Below the pieces are notes generated by a model, which saw nothing but the letters and a program-made list of their open reading frames with translations, was not told where the DNA came from and made no database searches. From the NCBI RefSeq assembly GCF_055900595.2, contig NZ_CM148325.1: 64,000 bases of DNA, one strand, 5' to 3'. Both the position numbers and the translations under genes were made by a program. Each line of letters begins with the position of its first letter. Within the stretch, counting starts at the first letter, position 1. Of the stretch, positions 10,820 to 51,835 are shown piece by piece.

Positions 10820-10902
10820 CCCAGAGGTATTGATAGGTGAAGTCAACTTCGGGTTGAGCACATGAATTACACCAGCCTGCGCAGATGCGCAGGTTTTTTT
10901 TT
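10820..10902 (+). ncRNA. omrB: OmrB small regulatory RNA
   Basis: Starts cccagaggtattgataggtga..., ends with hairpin cctgcgcagatgcgcagg plus a T9 run; about 83 nt; paralogous to the downstream copy. Confidence 0.85.
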
Positions 10903-11016
10903 GCCGGTCATCAATCTGTAACAGTAACCGACAATTTACACACCTCGTTGCATTTCCCTTCATTCCTTTGCGTTTTCTCGCTGGCGAAGAGTCGTCGTGC
11001 AGACCACAATCAAGAT

Positions 11017-11104
11017 CCCAGAGGTATTGATTGGTGAGATTATTCGGTACGCTCTTCGTACCCTGTCTCTTGCACCAACCTGCGCGGATGCGCAGGTTTT
11101 TTTT
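11017..11104 (+). ncRNA. omrA: OmrA small regulatory RNA
   Basis: Starts cccagaggtattgattggtgag..., same conserved 5' seed and 3' terminator (cctgcgcggatgcgcagg plus T8); about 88 nt; immediately upstream of aas. Confidence 0.85.
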
Positions 11105-39961: not shown

Positions 39962-40191
39962 GGCACACCTCTTTGCATGATTATTCGTAATTATTGTATT
40001 TTTATTCTGTTTTTTCACTGGGTGCAAGTGCAAATTTTACGCATGAGCAACTTTTTTATCAGTAATGCCGTGAATATAAAAAGAATGTTTACCGTTTATT
40101 AGATGACAGATTATGCGTCTTTCGCTAAAGTTTCCGGTCAAATTAGTCGTTTATTTGTTACACAGCTTAGATTTTTTTGCTCGGGAGATGC

Positions 40192-41445
40192 ATGTCGGGA
40201 TCCAACACAGCAATCAGCCGTCGTCGTTTACTGCAAGGCGCGGGTGCCATGTGGCTATTGAGCGTAAGTCAGGTCAGTCTGGCTGCGGTCAGCCAGGTCG
40301 TGGCGGTGCGCGTCTGGCCTGCGTCCAGCTACACCCGTGTGACGGTAGAATCTAATCGTCAGCTGAAATATAAGCAGTTCGCGTTGAGTAACCCTGAACG
40401 CGTGGTGGTGGATATCGAAGATGTAAACCTGAACTCAGTGCTCAAGGGGATGGCGGCACAAATTCGTGCTGATGACCCGTTCATCAAGTCGGCGCGCGTC
40501 GGGCAGTTTGACCCGCAAACCGTGCGGATGGTTTTTGAGTTAAAGCAAAACGTAAAACCGCAGCTGTTTGCCCTTGCTCCGGTCGCCGGGTTTAAAGAGC
40601 GTCTGGTGATGGATCTCTATCCTGCCAATGCTCAGGACATGCAGGACCCGCTGCTGGCGCTGCTGGAGGATTACAATAAAGGCGATCTCGAAAAGCAGGT
40701 GCCGCCTGCGCAGAGTGGCCCGCAGCCAGGCAAAGCAGGGCGCGATCGTCCGATTGTCATTATGCTTGACCCTGGCCATGGCGGCGAAGACTCCGGTGCG
40801 GTGGGGAAATACAAAACGCGTGAAAAAGATGTGGTATTGCAAATTGCCCGCCGTTTGCGCTCTCTGATTGAGAAAGAGGGCAATATGAAAGTTTACATGA
40901 CCCGTAATGAAGACATCTTCATTCCGTTGCAAGTGCGCGTAGCAAAAGCACAGAAACAGCGTGCTGACTTGTTTGTCTCTATTCATGCCGATGCCTTTAC
41001 CAGTCGCCAGCCGAGCGGTTCCTCTGTGTTTGCGCTCTCTACCAAAGGTGCAACCAGTACCGCGGCAAAATATCTGGCGCAAACTCAGAACGCCTCGGAC
41101 TTGATTGGTGGCGTGAGTAAGAGCGGCGACCGTTATGTCGACCATACTATGTTCGATATGGTGCAGTCGCTGACCATTGCCGACAGTCTGAAGTTTGGTA
41201 AAGCTGTGTTGAATAAGCTCGGTAAAATCAACAAGCTGCATAAAAATCAGGTTGAACAAGCCGGGTTTGCCGTGCTGAAAGCGCCTGATATACCCTCCAT
41301 TTTGGTCGAAACGGCGTTTATCAGTAACGTTGAGGAAGAACGTAAACTGAAAACGGCAACCTTCCAGCAGGAAGTTGCGGAATCAATCCTCGCAGGGATA
41401 AAAGCGTATTTTGCCGATGGGGCGACGCTGGCGAGAAGGGGATAA
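40192..41445 (+). CDS. amiC: N-acetylmuramoyl-L-alanine amidase AmiC
   Basis: 417 aa from ATG at 40192 ([23 protein letters not shown]... Tat-type RR signal); gggaga RBS; Amidase_3 catalytic domain. Confidence 0.94.
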
Positions 41446-41613
41446 TGTTTTTATTTATTCAATGAATTTATATTTCGTTGAATAGATAATATTTACCTGA
41501 ATATTAGACGTTGGTTTTGTGACTGATGTCGAATATTTGAATGTCGGCTTGAAAAATAAGCCGACCATCTCTTTAATTAAGCACAATTCCGTGTAATGTA
41601 TATGCATTAGTTA

Positions 41614-41647
41614 ATCATCTTGTAACTGTTAAATCAGGCAAGGCAAT
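41614..41647 (+). promoter_or_regulatory. RAT (ribonucleic antiterminator) element in the operon leader
   Basis: tcatcTTGTaACTGtTAAAtCAGGCAAggCa resembles the SacY/LicT/BglG RAT consensus GGATTGTTACTGATAAAGCAGGCAAAACC; its 3' part overlaps the left arm of the following terminator. Confidence 0.6.
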
Positions 41648-41691
41648 GTTTGAAGTAATTATTACTTCTGACGTGCCTTGCCTTTTTTTTT
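41638..41691 (+). terminator. Leader rho-independent terminator overlapping the RAT
   Basis: Outer stem ggcaaggca/tgccttgcc (41638-41646 and 41674-41682) with an inner stem gaagtaat/attacttc, followed by T9 (41683-41691). Confidence 0.7.
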
Positions 41692-41702
41692 GGAGCTATG
41701 GA

Positions 41703-42527
41703 ATGATCATCGAAAAAGTCATGAACAATAATTGTGTACAGGCATCGATGAATGGACAGGAGGTTATCATTTCTGGGCCTGGCGTCGGTTACAACAAAAA
41801 ATATGGAATGTCGGTCCCTGAGCATCCGGCTAACCGGATTTTTTATGTCAGAAATGAACAAAAAAATAAACTCTACAAATTGATTGAACATGTGGATATT
41901 GAGTATGTTTTTGTTGCCGAAAAAATAGTGCAATATGCGGAGAACAATCTCGAAAAAAATCTCAATCCATCGCTACTATTGATTCTTGCTGATCATATTT
42001 CGAATGCAATATCCCGAGTCGCTTCAGGCATACAAATTAATAATGTTTTCCTTGATGAAATCAAAGCGTTGTACAAAGCAGAGTATGCGATAAGTCGCGA
42101 TGCATTAACTATCATTAATGAGCAATTCAGCGTTCAACTTCCTGATGATGAGATTGGTTTTATAGCATTGCATATTTTAAATAATTATGAAAATTCAGTT
42201 GATTATGAATCAGTACGGATTATTGAGTTGTCGCAAATAATCACGGGGCTTATTGAAGTTGTTTATAACAGAAAGGTGGACAGAAGTTCATTTAATTATT
42301 CCAGGTTCATGATACACCTTAAATATTTTTCAAGTCGCGTATTATGCAATGAAAAAATAAAACAGAAAGATATTGGTGATCTCTATGAACAGTTTCTTGA
42401 GAAAGACATTCTGTTACAGCGCGCAATTCATGAAATTGAAAGGTATTTGTACGCCACTTTTAAATATGAATTGATTTTGGAAGAAAAACTATATCTCTCT
42501 ATTCGCACCAAAGTATTAATGGACTGA
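41703..42527 (+). CDS. BglG/LicT/SacY-family transcriptional antiterminator (CAT domain plus two PRDs)
   Basis: 274 aa from ATG at 41703 (MIIEKVMNNNCVQASMNGQEVIISGPGVGYNKK = CAT RNA-binding domain); conserved His in PRD-like segments (IGFIALHILNN, RFMIHLKYFSS); ggag RBS 7 nt upstream. The track start at 41646 lies inside the terminator hairpin. Confidence 0.8.
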   Translation: MIIEKVMNNNCVQASMNGQEVIISGPGVGYNKKYGMSVPEHPANRIFYVRNEQKNKLYKLIEHVDIEYVFVAEKIVQYAENNLEKNLNPSLLLILADHISNAISRVASGIQINNVFLDEIKALYKAEYAISRDALTIINEQFSVQLPDDEIGFIALHILNNYENSVDYESVRIIELSQIITGLIEVVYNRKVDRSSFNYSRFMIHLKYFSSRVLCNEKIKQKDIGDLYEQFLEKDILLQRAIHEIERYLYATFKYELILEEKLYLSIRTKVLMD

Positions 42528-42558
42528 TTATATATAACATTTATATGAGATAACCCGC

Positions 42559-44139
42559 ATGAAACAAAAGAAAGCCTGGAGTTTTTTTCAGAGCCTGGGA
42601 AAGGCATTTATGTATCCCATCGCTCTGCTAAGTGTATGTGGCATGATGTTAGGGCTAGGAAGTGGTTTAGCCAGCGATGATATGGCAAAATTAATTCCAC
42701 TACTGGCTATTCCCGTAATTAAAACCATTCTTGATTTTATTGTTAGCCTTGGTTTGTTTGCCTTTGTCAATTTACCTGTATTGTTTGCGATAGCTATACC
42801 TCTGGGGTTATTAAAAGAGAAAGAGGATAAAGCCTATGGCGCTTTTTCTGGCTTAATTGGTTTCATGGCGATGCATCTGGGAACGAACTTTTATCTTAAA
42901 CAACATGACTTATTGGTCGCTGCTGATCAAATGTCGACACATGGGCAAACCATTATTCTGGGAATCCAGTCCTACAATACCAGTGTGTTGGGTGGGATTA
43001 TAGCAGGATTATTAGTCGCCAGTATGTATAAAAAGATCGTTAACTTACGTATTCCTGAATCATTAGGATTTTATAGTGGCCCACGCCTGGTGCCTATTAT
43101 TACACTGATTGTGATGAGCGGATTTGGTCTGATCATCCCTTTTATCTGGCCGCCATTTTTCAATCTTTTCATGCTCATTGGCCACTGGATTTCAACTTCC
43201 GGTCCTGTTGGCTATTTTTTCTATGCAGTCGCCGAACGCGTGACGATACCTTTTGGTTTAAATCACCTGGTGACGTCAGTTTTCCGCTTTACCCCCATCG
43301 GCGGATCGGCAGTGATCGGCGGAGAAGAGTATTATGGCACCCTGAACATGTTTATGGCGTACGTCAAAGAGAATGCGGTCATTCCGCTGGATTTGGCGGG
43401 GAAAATGGAACAGGGCAAACTGATGATTCAGTATGGTCTGGCTGGTGCCGCGCTGGCGATGTATCGCACTGCTCATGCTCAAAACAGAAAAGCTATCAAA
43501 GCATTGCTTATTTCCGGGGTGCTTACAGTCATTATTGGCGGCGTCAGCGAACCGATTGAGTTTCTGTTCTTATTTGTCAGTCCACTGCTATTTGTCTTCC
43601 ATGCTTTTATGAATGGATTCGCCAACATGGTCTTGCCATATATGGGCGTGAAGATGGGATTTACTGGCGATCTGATTCAATTTATTAGCTTTGGCGTATT
43701 GCGTGGCACAAGAACAGGTTGGCCAATAGCGGTGTGTGTCGAAGTGGCCTATTTCTTTATTTATTACTTTGTGTTCCGTTGGACTATTCTCAAATTTAAC
43801 CTGATGACGGTAGGCCGTGAAGAGTCCAGTCCTGTCACGCTGAACGCTCATGAGGATACGGCTATAGCGGATATCCCACCGCTTGATAAATCAGAGCTGC
43901 AAGCAGCGGAGCAGATGGTTAAGGCACTTGGTGGTAAAGAGAATATTAAATCCCTGGATAATTGCGTAACTCGTTTACGTTTAACAATCGCAGATATGGG
44001 ATTGATTGACGAGGCAGCAATAAAAAGAGCTGGCGGAATTGCGGTTGTTAAACTTGATCAAAATACCCTACAAGTCATTATCGGTACTAAAGTCATCGCC
44101 TTGCGTCGGGATATGGATAACTACATGGGGATATGCTGA
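42559..44139 (+). CDS. PTS glucose-family EIICB permease (no EIIA domain)
   Basis: 526 aa; about 10 TM segments (EIIC) then a C-terminal EIIB domain with phosphorylatable Cys in NCVTRLRLTIADMGL...AVVKLDQNTLQVIIGTK. Confidence 0.85.
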   Translation: MKQKKAWSFFQSLGKAFMYPIALLSVCGMMLGLGSGLASDDMAKLIPLLAIPVIKTILDFIVSLGLFAFVNLPVLFAIAIPLGLLKEKEDKAYGAFSGLIGFMAMHLGTNFYLKQHDLLVAADQMSTHGQTIILGIQSYNTSVLGGIIAGLLVASMYKKIVNLRIPESLGFYSGPRLVPIITLIVMSGFGLIIPFIWPPFFNLFMLIGHWISTSGPVGYFFYAVAERVTIPFGLNHLVTSVFRFTPIGGSAVIGGEEYYGTLNMFMAYVKENAVIPLDLAGKMEQGKLMIQYGLAGAALAMYRTAHAQNRKAIKALLISGVLTVIIGGVSEPIEFLFLFVSPLLFVFHAFMNGFANMVLPYMGVKMGFTGDLIQFISFGVLRGTRTGWPIAVCVEVAYFFIYYFVFRWTILKFNLMTVGREESSPVTLNAHEDTAIADIPPLDKSELQAAEQMVKALGGKENIKSLDNCVTRLRLTIADMGLIDEAAIKRAGGIAVVKLDQNTLQVIIGTKVIALRRDMDNYMGIC

Positions 44140-45314
44140 TGGATGTTTTTAATACTCCTATTTCCCGCAAAGGAACATATTGTACCCAATGGGACTTTTG
44201 CGAGGACAGATTTGGTGTAAAAGATGTATTACCATTCTCTATTTCAGATATGGATCTTCCGATACCGGAAGCTATCATCAGGGCATTAAAAAAACGTCTG
44301 GAACACCCGATTTTAGGGTACAGCCGTTGGCAGCATGATGACTATCTGAATGCGATAGTCAATTGGTATCATCAACAATATAAAACTGAAATCAAACCAG
44401 AATGGATCACCTATAGCCCAAGCGTGATGTACTCCATTGCTAAAGCAATAGAGTTATTGACATCGCATGGTGATAATATTCTCGTTTTTACACCTGTCTA
44501 TAATGCATTTTTTGATATAATTAAACATAGTGAGAGAAATATTCTGACAGCCTCTTTGATTATAAAAAATGAGGGGGGCTACGCTATCAATTGGCAAGAT
44601 TTTGATCTTAAGATTCAAAGCGCAAAGATGGTGTTATTATGTAATCCTCATAACCCGACAGGAACCGTCTGGTCGGAAGAAGATCTGCATAAAATCGCTG
44701 CAAGCTGTGCAAGACATAATGTCTGGTTATGTTCAGATGAAATTCACAGTGATTTTGTTTTTAATCGTAGCTTTACATCTGCGCTTAAAATAAAAAAAGA
44801 AAAAGTAGTGGTGTTTAATTCGATATCGAAGACATTTAATGTTCCCGCGCTAACAGGATCGTATATGATTTCAACTGACGATAATTTTAATCATAAGTTC
44901 AGAACGATATCAAGATATCGCGATTTTGTAAACTCCCCATCCGTACTGAATATAATTGCAACTATTATTGCCTATAACGAATGTGAGGGATGGTTAAAGT
45001 CATTAAAGGCACATATTGCCTCTAACATTCAATTCACCCAGCAGTATCTGAACGAAAATACTCCAGAATTGATCGTAAGGCCAGCTGATGGTTGCTATTT
45101 TTCGTGGATAGATTGCTCTGCTATTGGTTATCCATTTGATGAATTCTACAGTCGATTAATTCATGAAGGCAAAGTGGGCATTATGGCGGGGAATGTCTAT
45201 GGAACGGAGGGGGAGGGCTACCTTCGTCTGAACCTGGCCTGCGGTCGAGAAAAATTATATATGGGGCTTACGCGTCTTGCGAGTGTAATTAAAAATATTA
45301 ATCAAGGAAAATAA
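44133..45314 (+). CDS. PLP-dependent aminotransferase class I/II, MalY/PatB-like C-S lyase
   Basis: 393 aa; NPHNPTG motif and Schiff-base Lys in NSISKTFN; start overlaps the PTS gene stop (ATGCTGATGGA). Confidence 0.8.
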   Translation: MLMDVFNTPISRKGTYCTQWDFCEDRFGVKDVLPFSISDMDLPIPEAIIRALKKRLEHPILGYSRWQHDDYLNAIVNWYHQQYKTEIKPEWITYSPSVMYSIAKAIELLTSHGDNILVFTPVYNAFFDIIKHSERNILTASLIIKNEGGYAINWQDFDLKIQSAKMVLLCNPHNPTGTVWSEEDLHKIAASCARHNVWLCSDEIHSDFVFNRSFTSALKIKKEKVVVFNSISKTFNVPALTGSYMISTDDNFNHKFRTISRYRDFVNSPSVLNIIATIIAYNECEGWLKSLKAHIASNIQFTQQYLNENTPELIVRPADGCYFSWIDCSAIGYPFDEFYSRLIHEGKVGIMAGNVYGTEGEGYLRLNLACGREKLYMGLTRLASVIKNINQGK

Positions 45315-45316
45315 AA

Positions 45317-45913
45317 ATGAACAGCACGGATCTTATCCATCTCATTAAACATTTTATGCGTAACGAACATAAAGCAGTTGAAGAAGTTATTGATTCCCCC
45401 CTTTCGGAGGTTGCAAATTTAATTAAAGTATTACAGTCTTGTCAGGGGAAAGTTGTTTTTATTGGTGTCGGTAAGTCCGGTATTATTGCCCGAAAACTCG
45501 CCGCAACATTTGCCAGCACTGGAACTCCCTCGTTTTTTGTTCACGGTACTGAAGCCGTACACGGCGATCTTGGGATGGTGGCGAAAGATGATGTTGTTAT
45601 TCTTATTTCAAACAGTGGTGAGACGACAGAAATCCTGGCAACACTACCTAGTCTGAAAAAAATGGGTAATTATTTGATCTCCTTTACCCGCAGTCATCGC
45701 TCATCGCTTGCGATAAGTTGTGATTTATCCGTTGAAATTCCCGTAAAAAGTGAGGCGGATAATTTAGGTTTAGCGCCGTCATGCTCATCAACAGTCGTTC
45801 TGGTTGTTGGTGATGCGGTGGCGCTTGCGCTCTCCGAATTGAAAAAGTTTACTCGTGCTGATTTCGGCTTATATCATCCAGGAGGTGCGCTCGGTATTAA
45901 AGCAAACTCATAA
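45317..45913 (+). CDS. SIS-domain sugar-phosphate isomerase (KdsD/GutQ-like catalytic domain without CBS domains)
   Basis: 198 aa; VVFIGVGKSGIIARKLAATFASTGTPSFFVHGTEAVHGDLGMV...ISNSGET...HPGGALG closely resembles the SIS core of arabinose-5-phosphate isomerases; no C-terminal CBS pair. Confidence 0.8.
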   Translation: MNSTDLIHLIKHFMRNEHKAVEEVIDSPLSEVANLIKVLQSCQGKVVFIGVGKSGIIARKLAATFASTGTPSFFVHGTEAVHGDLGMVAKDDVVILISNSGETTEILATLPSLKKMGNYLISFTRSHRSSLAISCDLSVEIPVKSEADNLGLAPSCSSTVVLVVGDAVALALSELKKFTRADFGLYHPGGALGIKANS

Positions 45914-45983
45914 TTTTAGAATATAAAACAGTAACCGGTCACGCCATCTTTTGGGGTGGCGTTCATTGATGTGAGTGTCAGCT

Positions 45984-46931
45984 ATGAAAAACGTTCTGGT
46001 CACCGTTCCCAGCTTTTCAGCGCGTTGTGTTTCTGCCAGCAAGCTGCTAAGAGAAAATCATTTTAACCTTATTATCAAGAATAATGTGGAGCATCTGGTT
46101 AAATCAGAATCCACAGTATTACGAGAATCTATTTGCGCAGTCATTGCCGGAAAAGATTGTTATCAAGCGGATACGTTATCGCGACTACCAGGAGTGAAAA
46201 TAATATCGAGATTCGGGACAGGGATTGATAATATTGATCTTCATACGGCTCGACAATCAGGTATTGTGGTCAATAATGCTGTTGGGATTAATTCAAATGC
46301 AGTCGCGGAATTTATCATTGGTCTTATTTTTGCGAGCATGAGAAATATCCCCGGTAGCTATCATGCGATGCAAAATGGTTATTGGGGCGAGTCGCATGGC
46401 TGCGAGTTACAAGGTAAACGTATTGGCCTGCTTGGCTACGGCAATATTGGCAAAACACTGGCGAAAAGGTTATCTGGTTTTGATGTTGAGCTTTTAGCTT
46501 TTGACAAACAACCCGATTTCCAGGCCGCAGGCAAAGATGGAGTTCAGTTCGTATCAATTGAAGATATCTTTATGCAGTCTCATGTCATCATCGTTCTTTT
46601 GCCATTTTCTCCTGAGCTGGAGAACTTCATTAGTCATAAATATTTGTCGATGATGCGCAATGGTGCTCTTATCATCAACGCCGCAAGGGGAAAGTTGCTG
46701 GATGAGGGGGCTTTACTTCAGGTAATTGAAGAACGAAATGTTTTTGCAGCACTGGATGTGTTTAGCTCTGAACCGCTAGCGCAATTTAGCCCATTGCTAC
46801 ATGCCAGGAATATCATTACAACGCCGCATATTGCGGCCGCCACCGTTGAGTCATACCAGCAAACCGGGATATACGTTGCCAGGTCGATAATAGATTTCTT
46901 TGCAGGAAGGGAGATAAAAAACGTGCTGTGA
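45984..46931 (+). CDS. D-isomer-specific 2-hydroxyacid dehydrogenase family, NAD(P)-binding
   Basis: 315 aa from ATG at 45984 (MKNVLVTVPSF...; the track ORF starts 3 codons earlier at GTG); GLLGYGNIGKTLAKRL nucleotide-binding motif; catalytic-region motifs NAARGKLLDE and TPHIAAAT. Confidence 0.8.
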   Translation: MKNVLVTVPSFSARCVSASKLLRENHFNLIIKNNVEHLVKSESTVLRESICAVIAGKDCYQADTLSRLPGVKIISRFGTGIDNIDLHTARQSGIVVNNAVGINSNAVAEFIIGLIFASMRNIPGSYHAMQNGYWGESHGCELQGKRIGLLGYGNIGKTLAKRLSGFDVELLAFDKQPDFQAAGKDGVQFVSIEDIFMQSHVIIVLLPFSPELENFISHKYLSMMRNGALIINAARGKLLDEGALLQVIEERNVFAALDVFSSEPLAQFSPLLHARNIITTPHIAAATVESYQQTGIYVARSIIDFFAGREIKNVL

Positions 46932-46957
46932 GTTCAGCTAAGGAAGATTTCAGGTAC

Positions 46958-46991
46958 AAAAAAACCGCAATCTGTGAAACACATTGCGGTT
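46958..46991 (-). terminator. Terminator of the tRNA-fMet operon (bidirectional hairpin)
   Basis: Stem aaccgcaat/attgcggtt with 11-nt loop; on the minus strand it is followed by a U7 tract (the A-run 46958-46964), 19 nt downstream of the tRNA 3' end. Confidence 0.65.
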
Positions 46992-47009
46992 TATCAGCAT
47001 CATAAGTGT

Positions 47010-47086
<77 letters not shown>

Positions 47087-51629: not shown

Positions 51630-51835
51630 AAAAAAAAGCACCGCAATTAGGCGGTGCTACATTAATCACTATGGACAGACAGGGTAAATGTACAGGAAGT
51701 GAAAAAAGGTAGCTTTGCTACCATGGTCTGAATCGCAGACCAATTGCAAACACAACAACACAACATCACAACCGTAAGCCAAAAGTTCACCAGAACACGC
51801 ATTCCGATAAAACTTTTCGTTCCGGCTCAGGAAGT
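51630..51835 (-). ncRNA. gcvB: GcvB small regulatory RNA
   Basis: Minus strand reads ACTTCCTGAGCCGGAACGAAAAGTTTTATCGGAATGCGTGTTCTGGTGAAC...GTTGTGTTGTTGTGTTTGCAATTGG...GCACCGCCTAATTGCGGTGCTTTTTTTT: G/U-rich seed region and terminal hairpin plus U8; divergent from gcvA. Confidence 0.9.

What the first reader, a model, noticed from the sequence alone, without database searches (positions are those of the whole stretch)
41614..41691. RAT-plus-terminator leader implies ribo-antitermination control of the islet operon
Just upstream of the antiterminator gene, a sequence resembling the SacY/LicT/BglG RAT consensus overlaps the 5' arm of a strong intrinsic terminator (9-bp outer stem, nested 8-bp inner stem, T9). 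This is the arrangement expected if the PRD-containing antiterminator, under phosphorylation control by its cognate PTS permease, stabilises the RAT and prevents terminator formation. It also shows that the long ORF start at 41646 is wrong, since it would begin inside the hairpin.
Basis: partly seen in the sequence, partly recalled or inferred. Interest (0 to 1): 0.7.

Follow-up and report, generated by a model that had tools for sequence, protein, structure and literature searches.

The report
Antiterminator RNA switch before paf operon
The leader of a five-gene sugar-uptake islet in this E. coli chromosome carries a standard protein-controlled RNA stop signal, of the kind known from the bgl and sac operons; it is real and conserved, but it is an ordinary example in a locus already published as pafR/pafP.

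Summary
At 41617-41645 lies a RAT-like hairpin, with its core at 41620-41642. Its 3' half forms the 5' arm of a strong intrinsic terminator: hairpin 41636-41683, followed by nine T at 41683-41691.

A covariance model built only from six characterised RATs ranks this site first in the 64-kb window (20.2 bits, rough E 0.0013). Folding shows that RAT and terminator exclude each other. In nine distinct orthologous leaders (Escherichia, Citrobacter, Atlantibacter, metagenomes) the RAT core is invariant except for one base. The terminator keeps its pairing through three compensatory changes.

The gene starts at ATG 41703, not 41646.

The islet (41446-47008) lies between amiC and the tRNA-Met genes. 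It is the c3405-c3410 module of the CFT073 metV island, and its antiterminator is 98% identical to the CFT073 protein, published as PafR with the permease PafP (Baum et al. 2014; I could not read that paper).

The mechanism is the textbook BglG/SacY one, inferred by homology and not shown here. The RAT departs from the canon: it lacks the basal G-G/C-C stem and internal loop 1. It occurs once per genome in 1688 of 5426 complete E. coli genomes and is not annotated there.

Interest is modest: this is a new, slightly divergent member of a known kind.

The parts
41594..41599 (+). Candidate -10 hexamer (TAATGT, of the form TAnnnT). The conserved CA at 41605-41606 is a possible transcription start. 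This is inference only.
   Evidence: TAnnnT and the downstream CA are conserved in all ten aligned leaders, while sequence further upstream diverges. The consensus scan found no sigma-70-like promoter scoring at least 9 of 12 in 41446-41700.
41617..41645 (+). RAT-like antiterminator hairpin, with its core at 41620-41642. It is the predicted binding site for the CAT domain of the antiterminator encoded downstream.
   Evidence: Top hit of model R1, built from six characterised RATs (20.2 bits, rough E 0.0013, model positions 4-26). It folds alone at -6.3 kcal/mol and forms first during transcription. The core is invariant in nine distinct orthologous leaders apart from A8 to C. The motif is unique in the window.
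41636..41683 (+). Intrinsic terminator hairpin of 10 + 4 + 7 bp. Its 5' arm (41636-41645) is the 3' part of the RAT.
   Evidence: The terminator fold of the leader is about -28 to -30 kcal/mol; z = -3.96. Across orthologues 93.6% of cells pair and three pairs carry compensatory changes. RNAalifold predicts the same helix on its own.
41683..41691 (+). T9 tract of the terminator.
   Evidence: Read from the sequence. A run of exactly nine T is present in the window, CFT073 and all ten other leaders examined.
41692..41695 (+). Shine-Dalgarno sequence GGAG, 7 nt before the true start codon.
   Evidence: Read from the sequence. Conserved in all aligned leaders.
41703..42527 (+). CAT-PRD1-PRD2 antiterminator gene (274 aa), 98% identical to the CFT073 metV-island protein, which I take to be PafR.
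   Evidence: NCBIfam LicT 227.7 bits and GlcT 178.6 bits, both below the curated cut-offs. Pfam PF03123 and PF00874 on the orthologues. Matches solved LicT and GlcT structures. RefSeq start. 268 of 274 residues identical to CFT073.
42559..44139 (+). MalX-like PTS EIICB permease (526 aa), presumed PafP. It is the presumed sensor that phosphorylates PRD1 of the antiterminator.
   Evidence: TIGR02004 PTS-IIBC-malX, 536 bits. EIIB motif CVTRLR at Cys469. It has no EIIA domain.
44133..45314 (+). MalY/PatB-family PLP-dependent C-S lyase gene. RefSeq starts it at 44139.
   Evidence: TIGR04350, 366.9 bits, above the cut-off of 340. RefSeq annotation.
45317..45913 (+). SIS-only KpsF/GutQ-like sugar-phosphate isomerase gene (198 aa, no CBS domains). 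From memory, this is c3406 of CFT073.
   Evidence: KdsD and KpsF models match only the SIS part. RefSeq annotation.
45975..46931 (+). D-2-hydroxyacid / phosphoglycerate dehydrogenase-like gene, last in the operon. RefSeq starts it at 45984.
46965..46989 (.). Hairpin at the end of the operon (CCGCAAT / ATTGCGG). A7 precedes it and TTT follows it. It lies between the operon and the converging tRNA-Met genes.
   Evidence: Read from the sequence printed. Not tested further.

Best explanation
This is a RAT-terminator gate of the BglG/SacY type. It controls a five-gene operon that includes the gene for its own antiterminator.

Transcription starts somewhere upstream of 41617. The start is probably a weak promoter with its -10 at 41594-41599, and read-through from amiC is also possible.

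The nascent RNA first forms the small RAT hairpin (41618-41643, -6.3 kcal/mol). If no active antiterminator is bound, the 3' arm of the terminator (41674-41683) displaces the 3' half of the RAT. The 21-bp terminator then forms, and RNA polymerase stops at the T9 tract, 12 nt before the start codon.

If the CAT domain of the dimeric antiterminator (PafR) holds the RAT closed, bases 41636-41643 are unavailable to the terminator. Only an inner hairpin can form, and it ends 7 nt before the U tract. Transcription then continues into pafR, the MalX-like EIICB permease (PafP) and three metabolic genes.

By analogy with BglG/BglF and GlcT/PtsG, the idle permease phosphorylates PRD1 (His98, His157) and inactivates the antiterminator. 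Transport of the still unknown sugar drains the phosphate and activates it. Because the only gate lies before pafR itself, the circuit is positively autoregulated and depends on basal read-through.

Shown here: the two structures, their mutual exclusion, their conservation, the domain content of the proteins and the identity of the locus.

Inferred: binding, antitermination, phosphorylation control, the promoter and the inducer.
For: - RAT core recognised by a model built from E. coli bgl RAT1 and RAT2 and B. subtilis sacB, sacPA, licS and bglP.
- The same model finds the known bgl RATs at 44 bits and RATs next to clostridial licT-like genes at 18-40 bits, so it works as intended.
- Terminator energy and z-score.
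- Enforced-RAT fold is -18.0 against -29.6 kcal/mol. The residual hairpin is separated from the U tract, and prefix folding shows the RAT forming first.
- Terminator covariation: column 54/88 G-C to A-U in 4 of 9 leaders, 63/79 G-C to A-U in 2, and 58/84 U-G to G-C in 1. RNAalifold gives the same helix.
- The RAT is invariant while the upstream non-coding DNA diverges.
- The leader travels with the operon to a second chromosomal site in L009, L010 and L015.
- CAT-PRD protein with His98, His157 and His205 conserved.
- Permease with the EIIB cysteine.
- The pafR-pafP gap is 31 nt with no hairpin, and no second RAT exists in the window.
- One RAT per genome in 1688 of 5426 E. coli genomes.
- CFT073 has the same leader at 99% identity and the same protein at 98%.
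- PafR is described as an antiterminator encoded on the metV island and expressed only in vivo (PMC8882828; PMC4468546; PMC9981650).
Against: - No experiment here shows binding or regulated read-through.
- The RAT pairs never vary, so there is no covariation evidence for the RAT hairpin itself.
- The site scores about half as high as canonical RATs (20 against 34-44 bits), because positions 1-3 and 27-29 do not match.
- The basal G1G2/C28C29 stem and loop 1 are absent. In LicT, loop 1 is one of the two protein contact sites (PMC3105407).
- The CAT domain has Pro where LicT has Arg27, and Tyr where Phe31 is described as strictly conserved.
- The LicT His269 position is Arg.
- No good sigma-70 promoter was found.
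- From memory of the Baum et al. 2014 abstract, PafR's targets were stated to be unknown. I could not check whether this leader was considered.
Confidence: 0.8

Rival explanations
1. The hairpin is only a constitutive terminator. It ends amiC transcripts and insulates the acquired islet, and the RAT resemblance has no function.
For: The islet begins directly after the amiC stop codon and replaces the amiC terminator that K-12 has there. The leader hairpin is therefore the first strong intrinsic terminator after amiC. The RAT pairs show no covariation, and the RAT lacks the basal stem.
Against: The RAT-like core is the top hit in 128 kb of searched strand, and it lies exactly where the family places it, before a CAT-PRD gene. 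It is invariant across genera where the flanking non-coding DNA is not. The same RAT and terminator accompany the operon at a site that has no amiC.
Confidence: 0.07
2. The RAT is real but is served mainly by another antiterminator of the cell, such as BglG, through cross-talk rather than by the protein encoded downstream.
For: By my count the site shares 20 of 29 positions with the bgl RAT1 read. Cross-talk among family members is documented in B. subtilis (PMC1635312; PMC3105407).
Against: RAT and antiterminator gene are inherited together in every locus examined, including genera and sites with no known bgl link. The RAT departs from the bgl RATs at positions 1-3, 8, 13, 18, 26, 27 and 29. 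The paf CAT domain departs from LicT and BglG at the specificity positions (Pro26, Asn31), which suggests a matched pair.
Confidence: 0.06
3. The ORF starting at 41646 is translated, either as the true N-terminus or as a leader peptide, and ribosomes rather than a protein-RNA complex control terminator formation.
For: An in-frame ATG at 41646 opens the longest ORF.
Against: The ATG is ACG or AGG in most of the non-Escherichia leaders. It lies inside the terminator stem and has no Shine-Dalgarno sequence before it. RefSeq uses 41703. The 19-residue extension MFEVIITSDVPCLFFWSYG has no counterpart in LicT, whose residue 2 aligns with residue 2 of the 41703 product.
Confidence: 0.02

Closest known systems
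E. coli bgl operon leader (RAT1 with terminator t1 before bglG, sensed by BglF)
   Same: The RAT overlaps the terminator in the leader of an operon whose first gene is the antiterminator, followed by the PTS permease. The locus is AT-rich and horizontally acquired, and appears silent in the laboratory. The core UUGU-ACUG...CAGGCAA is shared.
   Different: bgl has a second RAT and terminator between bglG and bglF. Here the gap is 31 nt with nothing in it. The bgl RATs have the G1G2/C28C29 basal stem and the A3/A26A27 loop, and this one does not. The protein scores only 104 bits on the BglG model against 228 on LicT. The permease is of the glucose/maltose (MalX) class without EIIA, not a beta-glucoside EIIBCA.
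B. subtilis sacB and sacPA RATs with SacY and SacT
   Same: Closest RAT sequence, at 20 of 29 positions with sacB by my count, including the UAAA top loop and G26. The CAT specificity positions match this pair: Pro at the LicT-Arg27 position as in SacT, and Asn at the Gln32 position as in SacY.
   Different: A8 in place of U8, and U13/U18 in place of A13/G18. The basal stem is missing, and C3 can pair with G26, which closes loop 1. Those systems sense sucrose in Firmicutes. The B. subtilis RAT sequences are from my memory, cross-checked against the position-by-position description in PMC1635312.
B. subtilis GlcT with the ptsG RAT
   Same: An antiterminator coupled to a glucose-family EIICB permease. 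The RAT has a non-canonical lower loop. GlcT is the second-best NCBIfam match at 178.6 bits, and its solved structure 3RIO is also hit.
   Different: In B. subtilis the RAT lies between glcT and ptsG, so glcT is not behind its own gate. [quoted passage not shown]
PafR/PafP of uropathogenic E. coli CFT073 (Baum et al. 2014, Infect Immun 82:4241)
   Same: I take this to be the same locus. The protein is 98% identical, the leader 99% identical, and the position next to amiC in the metV island is the same. Papers I could read describe pafR as a transcription regulator or antiterminator of the metV island that is needed in the mouse urinary-tract model and expressed only in vivo.
   Different: In CFT073 a type VI secretion cluster of about 27 kb lies between the operon and metV. 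In this window the operon abuts the tRNA genes directly. I could not read the paper, so I cannot say whether it describes this RAT and terminator.
E. faecalis nagY-nagE leader
   Same: A single RAT-terminator gate before an antiterminator-permease operon, giving autoregulation. The RAT is divergent and was defined by comparative genomics and a covariance model (PMC9981650).
   Different: A different RAT sequence family, a Gram-positive host and an N-acetylglucosamine permease. Binding and regulation were shown experimentally there.

Membership tests
BglG/SacY-type RAT-terminator antitermination module | A hairpin of about 29 nt with the conserved RAT core (UUGUUACUG, a short loop, CAGGCAA), including internal loop 2 and the top stem | tested here: met
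   Model R1, built from six characterised RATs, matches 41620-41642 at model positions 4-26 with 20.2 bits and rough E 0.0013, the best hit in the window. Orthologous leaders score 20-22 bits.
BglG/SacY-type RAT-terminator antitermination module | Basal stem G1-C29 and G2-C28, and asymmetric internal loop 1 (position 3 opposite 26/27), the second contact site for the CAT dimer | tested here: not met
   Model positions 1-3 and 27-29 are not aligned. The sequence has A1, U2 and C3 opposite G26, G27, C28 and A29. The minimum-energy fold pairs U2-G27 and C3-G26 into a continuous lower helix. Canonical RATs score 34-44 bits.
BglG/SacY-type RAT-terminator antitermination module | The 3' part of the RAT is shared with the 5' arm of an intrinsic terminator, so the two folds exclude each other | tested here: met
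   41636-41643 is used by both folds. Enforcing the RAT raises the energy from -29.6 to -18.0 kcal/mol and leaves 7 unpaired nt before the U tract. The licS RAT overlaps its terminator by 8 nt (PMC5393181).
BglG/SacY-type RAT-terminator antitermination module | A true intrinsic terminator: a stable G+C-containing stem followed directly by a U tract | tested here: met
   21 bp, z = -3.96, T9. Three compensatory pairs and 93.6% of cells paired. T9 is present in every leader examined. Termination itself was not measured.
BglG/SacY-type RAT-terminator antitermination module | A cognate protein with an N-terminal CAT RNA-binding domain and two PRDs, encoded in the same operon | tested here: met
   PF03123 and PF00874 on the orthologues. 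LicT and GlcT models and solved structures match over residues 2-269. The scores fall below the LicT, GlcT and BglG equivalog cut-offs, so this is a separate subfamily.
BglG/SacY-type RAT-terminator antitermination module | Conserved phosphorylatable histidines in PRD1 and PRD2 (LicT H100, H159, H207, H269) | tested here: inconclusive
   His98, His157 and His205 align with H100, H159 and H207. The H269 position is Arg268. Negative control through PRD1 is plausible. Activation by HPr through PRD2 may differ.
BglG/SacY-type RAT-terminator antitermination module | An adjacent PTS EII permease with a catalytic EIIB cysteine that acts as the sensor | tested here: met
   MalX-like EIICB, 536 bits. 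CVTRLR at Cys469. The sensing function is inferred.
BglG/SacY-type RAT-terminator antitermination module | The protein binds the RAT and causes sugar-dependent read-through | not testable with these tools
   This needs a gel-shift or thermophoresis assay and reporter fusions. From memory, the Baum et al. 2014 abstract says PafR can act as an antiterminator, but the paper is not held.
BglG/SacY-type RAT-terminator antitermination module | The element lies in a 5' untranslated leader downstream of a promoter | tested here: inconclusive
   It lies 12-86 nt before the start codon. No sigma-70-like promoter scoring at least 9 of 12 was found in 41446-41700. A conserved TAnnnT and CA at 41594-41606 are only suggestive.
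paf locus (pafR-pafP) of the E. coli metV island | The same genes at the same chromosomal position as in CFT073 | tested here: met
   CFT073 carries amiC, the PRD gene, EIIC, MalY/PatB, KpsF-like and dehydrogenase genes in this order. The protein is 98% and the leader 99% identical. c3405-c3410 are assigned to PAI-CFT073-metV in PMC2831201. It is the only PRD-plus-PTS pair in that island. That the name PafR refers to this protein is my inference, supported by memory.

The most novel reading that the evidence does not exclude
The leader RAT and terminator may be the so far undescribed direct target of PafR, and may be why the paf genes look 'in vivo induced'. Any fusion that includes the leader stops at the T9 tract unless PafR is activated by its unknown sugar.

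Three further points could follow. First, the RAT is a reduced variant with no basal stem and no loop 1, matched to a CAT domain with Pro26, Tyr30 and Asn31. Second, it is the only near-identical copy in any E. coli genome, so PafR's reported effects on virulence and biofilm genes would be indirect. Third, because the islet replaced amiC's own terminator, read-through from amiC may supply the transcripts on which the gate acts.
Probability: 0.35. Interest if true: 0.4.

Novelty: new member of a known kind. Interest (0 to 1): 0.3.

Why it matters
The paf genes contribute to urinary-tract infection in mice, and are reported to show no expression in laboratory conditions. A defined RAT-terminator gate gives a concrete and testable reason for that silence.

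It also offers a practical handle. Deleting the terminator, or using a PRD1 mutant of PafR, should turn the operon on. That would allow a search for the unknown sugar.

The single-copy result argues that PafR's direct regulon in E. coli is its own operon.

For RNA-protein recognition, a natural RAT without loop 1 is a small but useful variant to compare with the LicT model, in which a dimer contacts two loops.

None of this changes how the family is understood.

Tried and rejected
- **Rfam.** Neither the gathering threshold nor E up to 10 gave a relevant match; only chance miRNA-like hits at E of about 1 appeared. No RAT-like family matched in Rfam, so I built my own model.
- **Extended lower stem.** I considered pairing CAU 41616-41618 with AUG 41646-41648 around a CA bulge. 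I rejected it because L014 has UAA and AGG at those places and cannot pair.
- **CRP site.** I considered TGTGA-N6-TCGAA at 41518-41533. I rejected it as unsupported: the second half-site is poor and variable, and TGTGA lies in the loop of a conserved inverted repeat.
- **Second RAT or terminator inside the operon.** None was found. The hairpin at 42581-42605 flagged by the scan is weak and lies inside the coding sequence, and the scan found no more hits than in shuffled sequence.
- **Second RAT copy elsewhere in E. coli.** None; every genome that has it has exactly one. BLAST would only detect near-identical copies.
- **Weak R1 hit at 46476-46514 on the minus strand** (E 0.14), inside the dehydrogenase gene. 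I treat it as chance.
- **Covariation in the RAT.** There is none, because the RAT is invariant.
- **PADLOC.** No match for the antiterminator.
- **Literature.** Baum et al. 2014 and Gordon et al. 2015 are not held. Searches for pafP and for c3405-c3410 added nothing beyond PMC2831201.
- **Distant relatives.** The genome scan returned only five loci, and the nearest non-orthologous proteins are at most 37% identical clostridial LicT-like proteins. No intermediate RATs were available.

Full report
**Where the window comes from.** The window is E. coli chromosome. Rfam finds GcvB, OmrA/B and three tRNAs. RefSeq records that are 100% identical place amiC at 40177-41445, then five genes, then three tRNA-Met genes and mltA.

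In K-12 only 73 bp separate amiC from metV. In the window, identity to K-12 stops at the amiC stop codon and resumes at 47009. The islet is therefore 41446-47008, with 40% G+C against 52% in the flanks, and it replaces K-12's own amiC terminator. The full islet is present in 1686 of 5426 complete E. coli genomes.

**Checking the observation.** The sequence at 41617-41691 is as described.
- The minimum-energy fold of 41600-41700 is a long hairpin: a 10-bp outer stem (41636-41645 with 41674-41683), a one-base bulge, 4 bp, then 7 bp around a 3-nt loop. Nine T follow at 41683-41691.
- The energy is -29.8 kcal/mol, z = -3.96, and none of 200 shuffles folds as well.
- Just upstream, AUCUUGUAACUGUUAAAUCAGGCAAGGCA (41617-41645) folds alone into a small hairpin of -6.3 kcal/mol.
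- The motif TTGTWACTG-N4-8-CAGGCAA occurs once in the window and never in 100 shuffles.

**Is it a RAT?** No RAT-like family matched in Rfam, so I built a covariance model from six characterised RATs.
- The two E. coli bgl RATs were read directly from K-12.
- The B. subtilis sacB, sacPA, licS and bglP RATs are from memory. I checked them against the position-by-position description in PMC1635312.
- The model ranks 41620-41642 first in the whole window at 20.2 bits and rough E 0.0013; the next hit has E 0.14.
- As a positive control, it finds the bgl RATs at 44 bits and finds RATs flanking clostridial licT-like genes that took no part in building it (18-40 bits).

The match covers model positions 4-26 only. 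The basal G1G2/C28C29 stem and loop 1 are missing, and C3 can pair with G26 to give a continuous lower helix. The core is therefore canonical and the base is not. A8, which differs from the usual U8, also occurs in two RATs of the Clostridium tertium locus.

**Mutual exclusion.** Bases 41636-41643 belong to both folds. Enforcing the RAT pairs raises the energy of the leader from -29.6 to -18.0 kcal/mol. The hairpin that remains ends 7 nt before the U tract, so it should not terminate.

Folding successive prefixes shows that the RAT forms first and survives until the 3' arm is transcribed to about 41679. The licS RAT overlaps its terminator by 8 nt in the same way (PMC5393181).

**Conservation.** Orthologous operons were recovered from Escherichia whittamii, a second E. 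coli allele, two Citrobacter genomes, Atlantibacter hermannii and several metagenome contigs.
- The proteins are 77-93% identical to the window's.
- The non-coding DNA upstream of about 41567 is poorly conserved outside Escherichia.
- From there to the start codon the leader is 91% identical on average, and the RAT core is invariant except for A8 to C.
- In the terminator, three pairs change on both sides while pairing is kept: G-C to A-U at 41643/41676 in four of nine distinct leaders, G-C to A-U at 41652/41668 in two, and U-G to G-C at 41647/41673 in one.
- Overall 93.6% of cells pair, against 33-54% when the partner column is slid. RNAalifold recovers the same helix.
- The RAT pairs never vary, so they give no covariation evidence either way.
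- In L009, L010 and L015 the operon and its leader lie at a different chromosomal site, after an LTXXQ-family gene and, in L009 (the only one of the three contigs that extends beyond the operon), before rnt. The gate therefore belongs to the operon, not to amiC.

**Gene start.** RefSeq begins the gene at the ATG equivalent to 41703. GGAG lies 7 nt upstream and is conserved. ATG 41646 is ACG or AGG in most of the non-Escherichia leaders. The product from 41703 aligns with LicT from residue 2.

**The proteins.**
- The 274-aa product is a CAT-PRD1-PRD2 antiterminator. It scores 227.7 bits on LicT, 178.6 on GlcT and 104.5 on BglG, all below the curated cut-offs. It also matches the solved LicT and GlcT structures.
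- His98, His157 and His205 match LicT H100, H159 and H207. The H269 position is Arg.
- At the RNA-contact positions listed in PMC3105407, it has Gly25-Pro26 where LicT has Gly26-Arg27 (SacT also has Pro). It has Tyr30 for Phe31, and Asn31 for Gln32 (SacY also has Asn).
- This fits a RAT with G26 and a UAAA loop, as in sacB and sacPA. That link is my inference.
- The next gene encodes a MalX-like EIICB permease with the EIIB motif CVTRLR and no EIIA domain.
- Three more genes follow: a MalY/PatB C-S lyase, a SIS-only KpsF-like isomerase and a 2-hydroxyacid dehydrogenase.
- The gap between the first two genes is 31 nt with no structure, so there is a single gate for all five genes.

**What is already known.** The islet is the c3405-c3410 block of PAI-CFT073-metV (PMC2831201). 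In CFT073 the same five genes lie next to amiC, with a type VI secretion cluster between them and metV. The leader is 99% identical and the antiterminator 98% identical.

Papers I could read cite Baum et al. 2014 for pafR. They describe it as a transcription regulator or antiterminator of the metV island, needed together with pafP in the mouse urinary-tract model and apparently expressed only in vivo. That paper, and the RAT survey by Gordon et al. 2015 (mentioned in PMC12591593), are not held.

From memory, the Baum abstract says that PafR can act as an antiterminator, that its targets are unknown, and that no in vitro expression was detected from the promoter before the paf genes. I could not check this.

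The RAT is not an annotated feature in RefSeq, and it occurs exactly once in each of 1688 genomes.

**Mechanism and rivals.** The best explanation is the standard BglG/SacY switch described above, with positive autoregulation; confidence 0.8.
- A purely constitutive terminator with a chance RAT look-alike is unlikely, given the model hit, the invariance and the co-transfer with the operon.
- Cross-talk from BglG cannot be excluded, but it is not needed.
- A leader-peptide mechanism is contradicted by the loss of the ATG in orthologues.
- The promoter is uncertain. No good sigma-70 match exists. A conserved TAnnnT at 41594-41599 and CA at 41605-41606 are the only candidates. Read-through from amiC is possible because its K-12 terminator is gone.

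**Verdict.** This is a real, conserved and slightly non-canonical RAT-terminator gate in a published locus. It is a new member of a known kind, of modest interest (0.3). Its practical value is that it explains why the paf operon is silent and suggests how to switch it on.

Noticed in passing
window 41446-41566: Three consecutive inverted repeats lie between the amiC stop codon and the paf leader: 41451-41489, 41500-41537 and 41543-41565. They are kept, with some compensatory differences, in E. whittamii and the E69 allele, but not in Citrobacter or Atlantibacter. The stretch occurs once per genome in 1689 E. coli genomes. Its role is unknown; it could be the 3' end of the amiC mRNA, an island boundary or a protein-binding region.
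   Followed up: partly
window 41445-41446 and 47008-47009: The islet replaces the whole 73-bp amiC-metV spacer of K-12, including the hairpin and T-run that directly follow amiC there. The first strong terminator after amiC is now the paf leader terminator, so amiC read-through could feed the RAT gate.
   Followed up: partly
L009 5888-11240; L010; L015: The same five-gene operon, with the same RAT-terminator leader, lies at a different chromosomal site in Citrobacter-like metagenome contigs. There it follows an LTXXQ-family gene and, in L009 (the only contig that extends past the operon), precedes rnt and rnhA, not amiC and metV. The operon and its leader move as a unit.
   Followed up: partly
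L017 (CFT073) 8023-34290, against window 46932-47012: CFT073 has a type VI secretion cluster of about 27 kb between the operon and the tRNA-Met genes. The window strain has none. The metV island is therefore made of at least two separable modules.
   Followed up: no
window 42504-42506 (codon 268 of the antiterminator): The position matching LicT His269, the second phosphorylatable histidine of PRD2, is arginine, while the other three histidines are kept. Activation by HPr may therefore differ from LicT.
   Followed up: partly
window 41682; L001, L006, L014: Some strains, including strain E200086 which is otherwise identical, lack one C in the 3' arm of the terminator (GCC becomes GC). This shifts the outermost pairs to G-U. 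The T9 run is unchanged in every leader examined.
   Followed up: partly
window 41618-41633 with 41687-41702: RNAalifold also pairs the 5' half of the RAT with the end of the T tract and the Shine-Dalgarno region. All those columns are invariant or nearly so, so there is no evidence for or against this pairing. It could matter for translation of read-through transcripts.
   Followed up: no
window 42559-46931: The cargo is a paralogue of the malX-malY pair (EIICB plus C-S lyase), together with a SIS-only KpsF-like isomerase and a 2-hydroxyacid dehydrogenase. The transported sugar and the pathway are unknown.
   Followed up: no
L018 3799-3826, 4866-4895, 5074-5103: The Clostridium tertium licT-like locus, one of the nearest non-orthologous relatives at 37% identity, carries three RATs. 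One lies before licT and two lie between licT and the EIIBCA gene. Those two have A8, like the paf RAT.
   Followed up: partly
window 10820-11104 and 51630-51835: OmrA, OmrB and GcvB small RNAs are found by Rfam at their expected E. coli positions. They are ordinary and unrelated to the finding.
   Followed up: no
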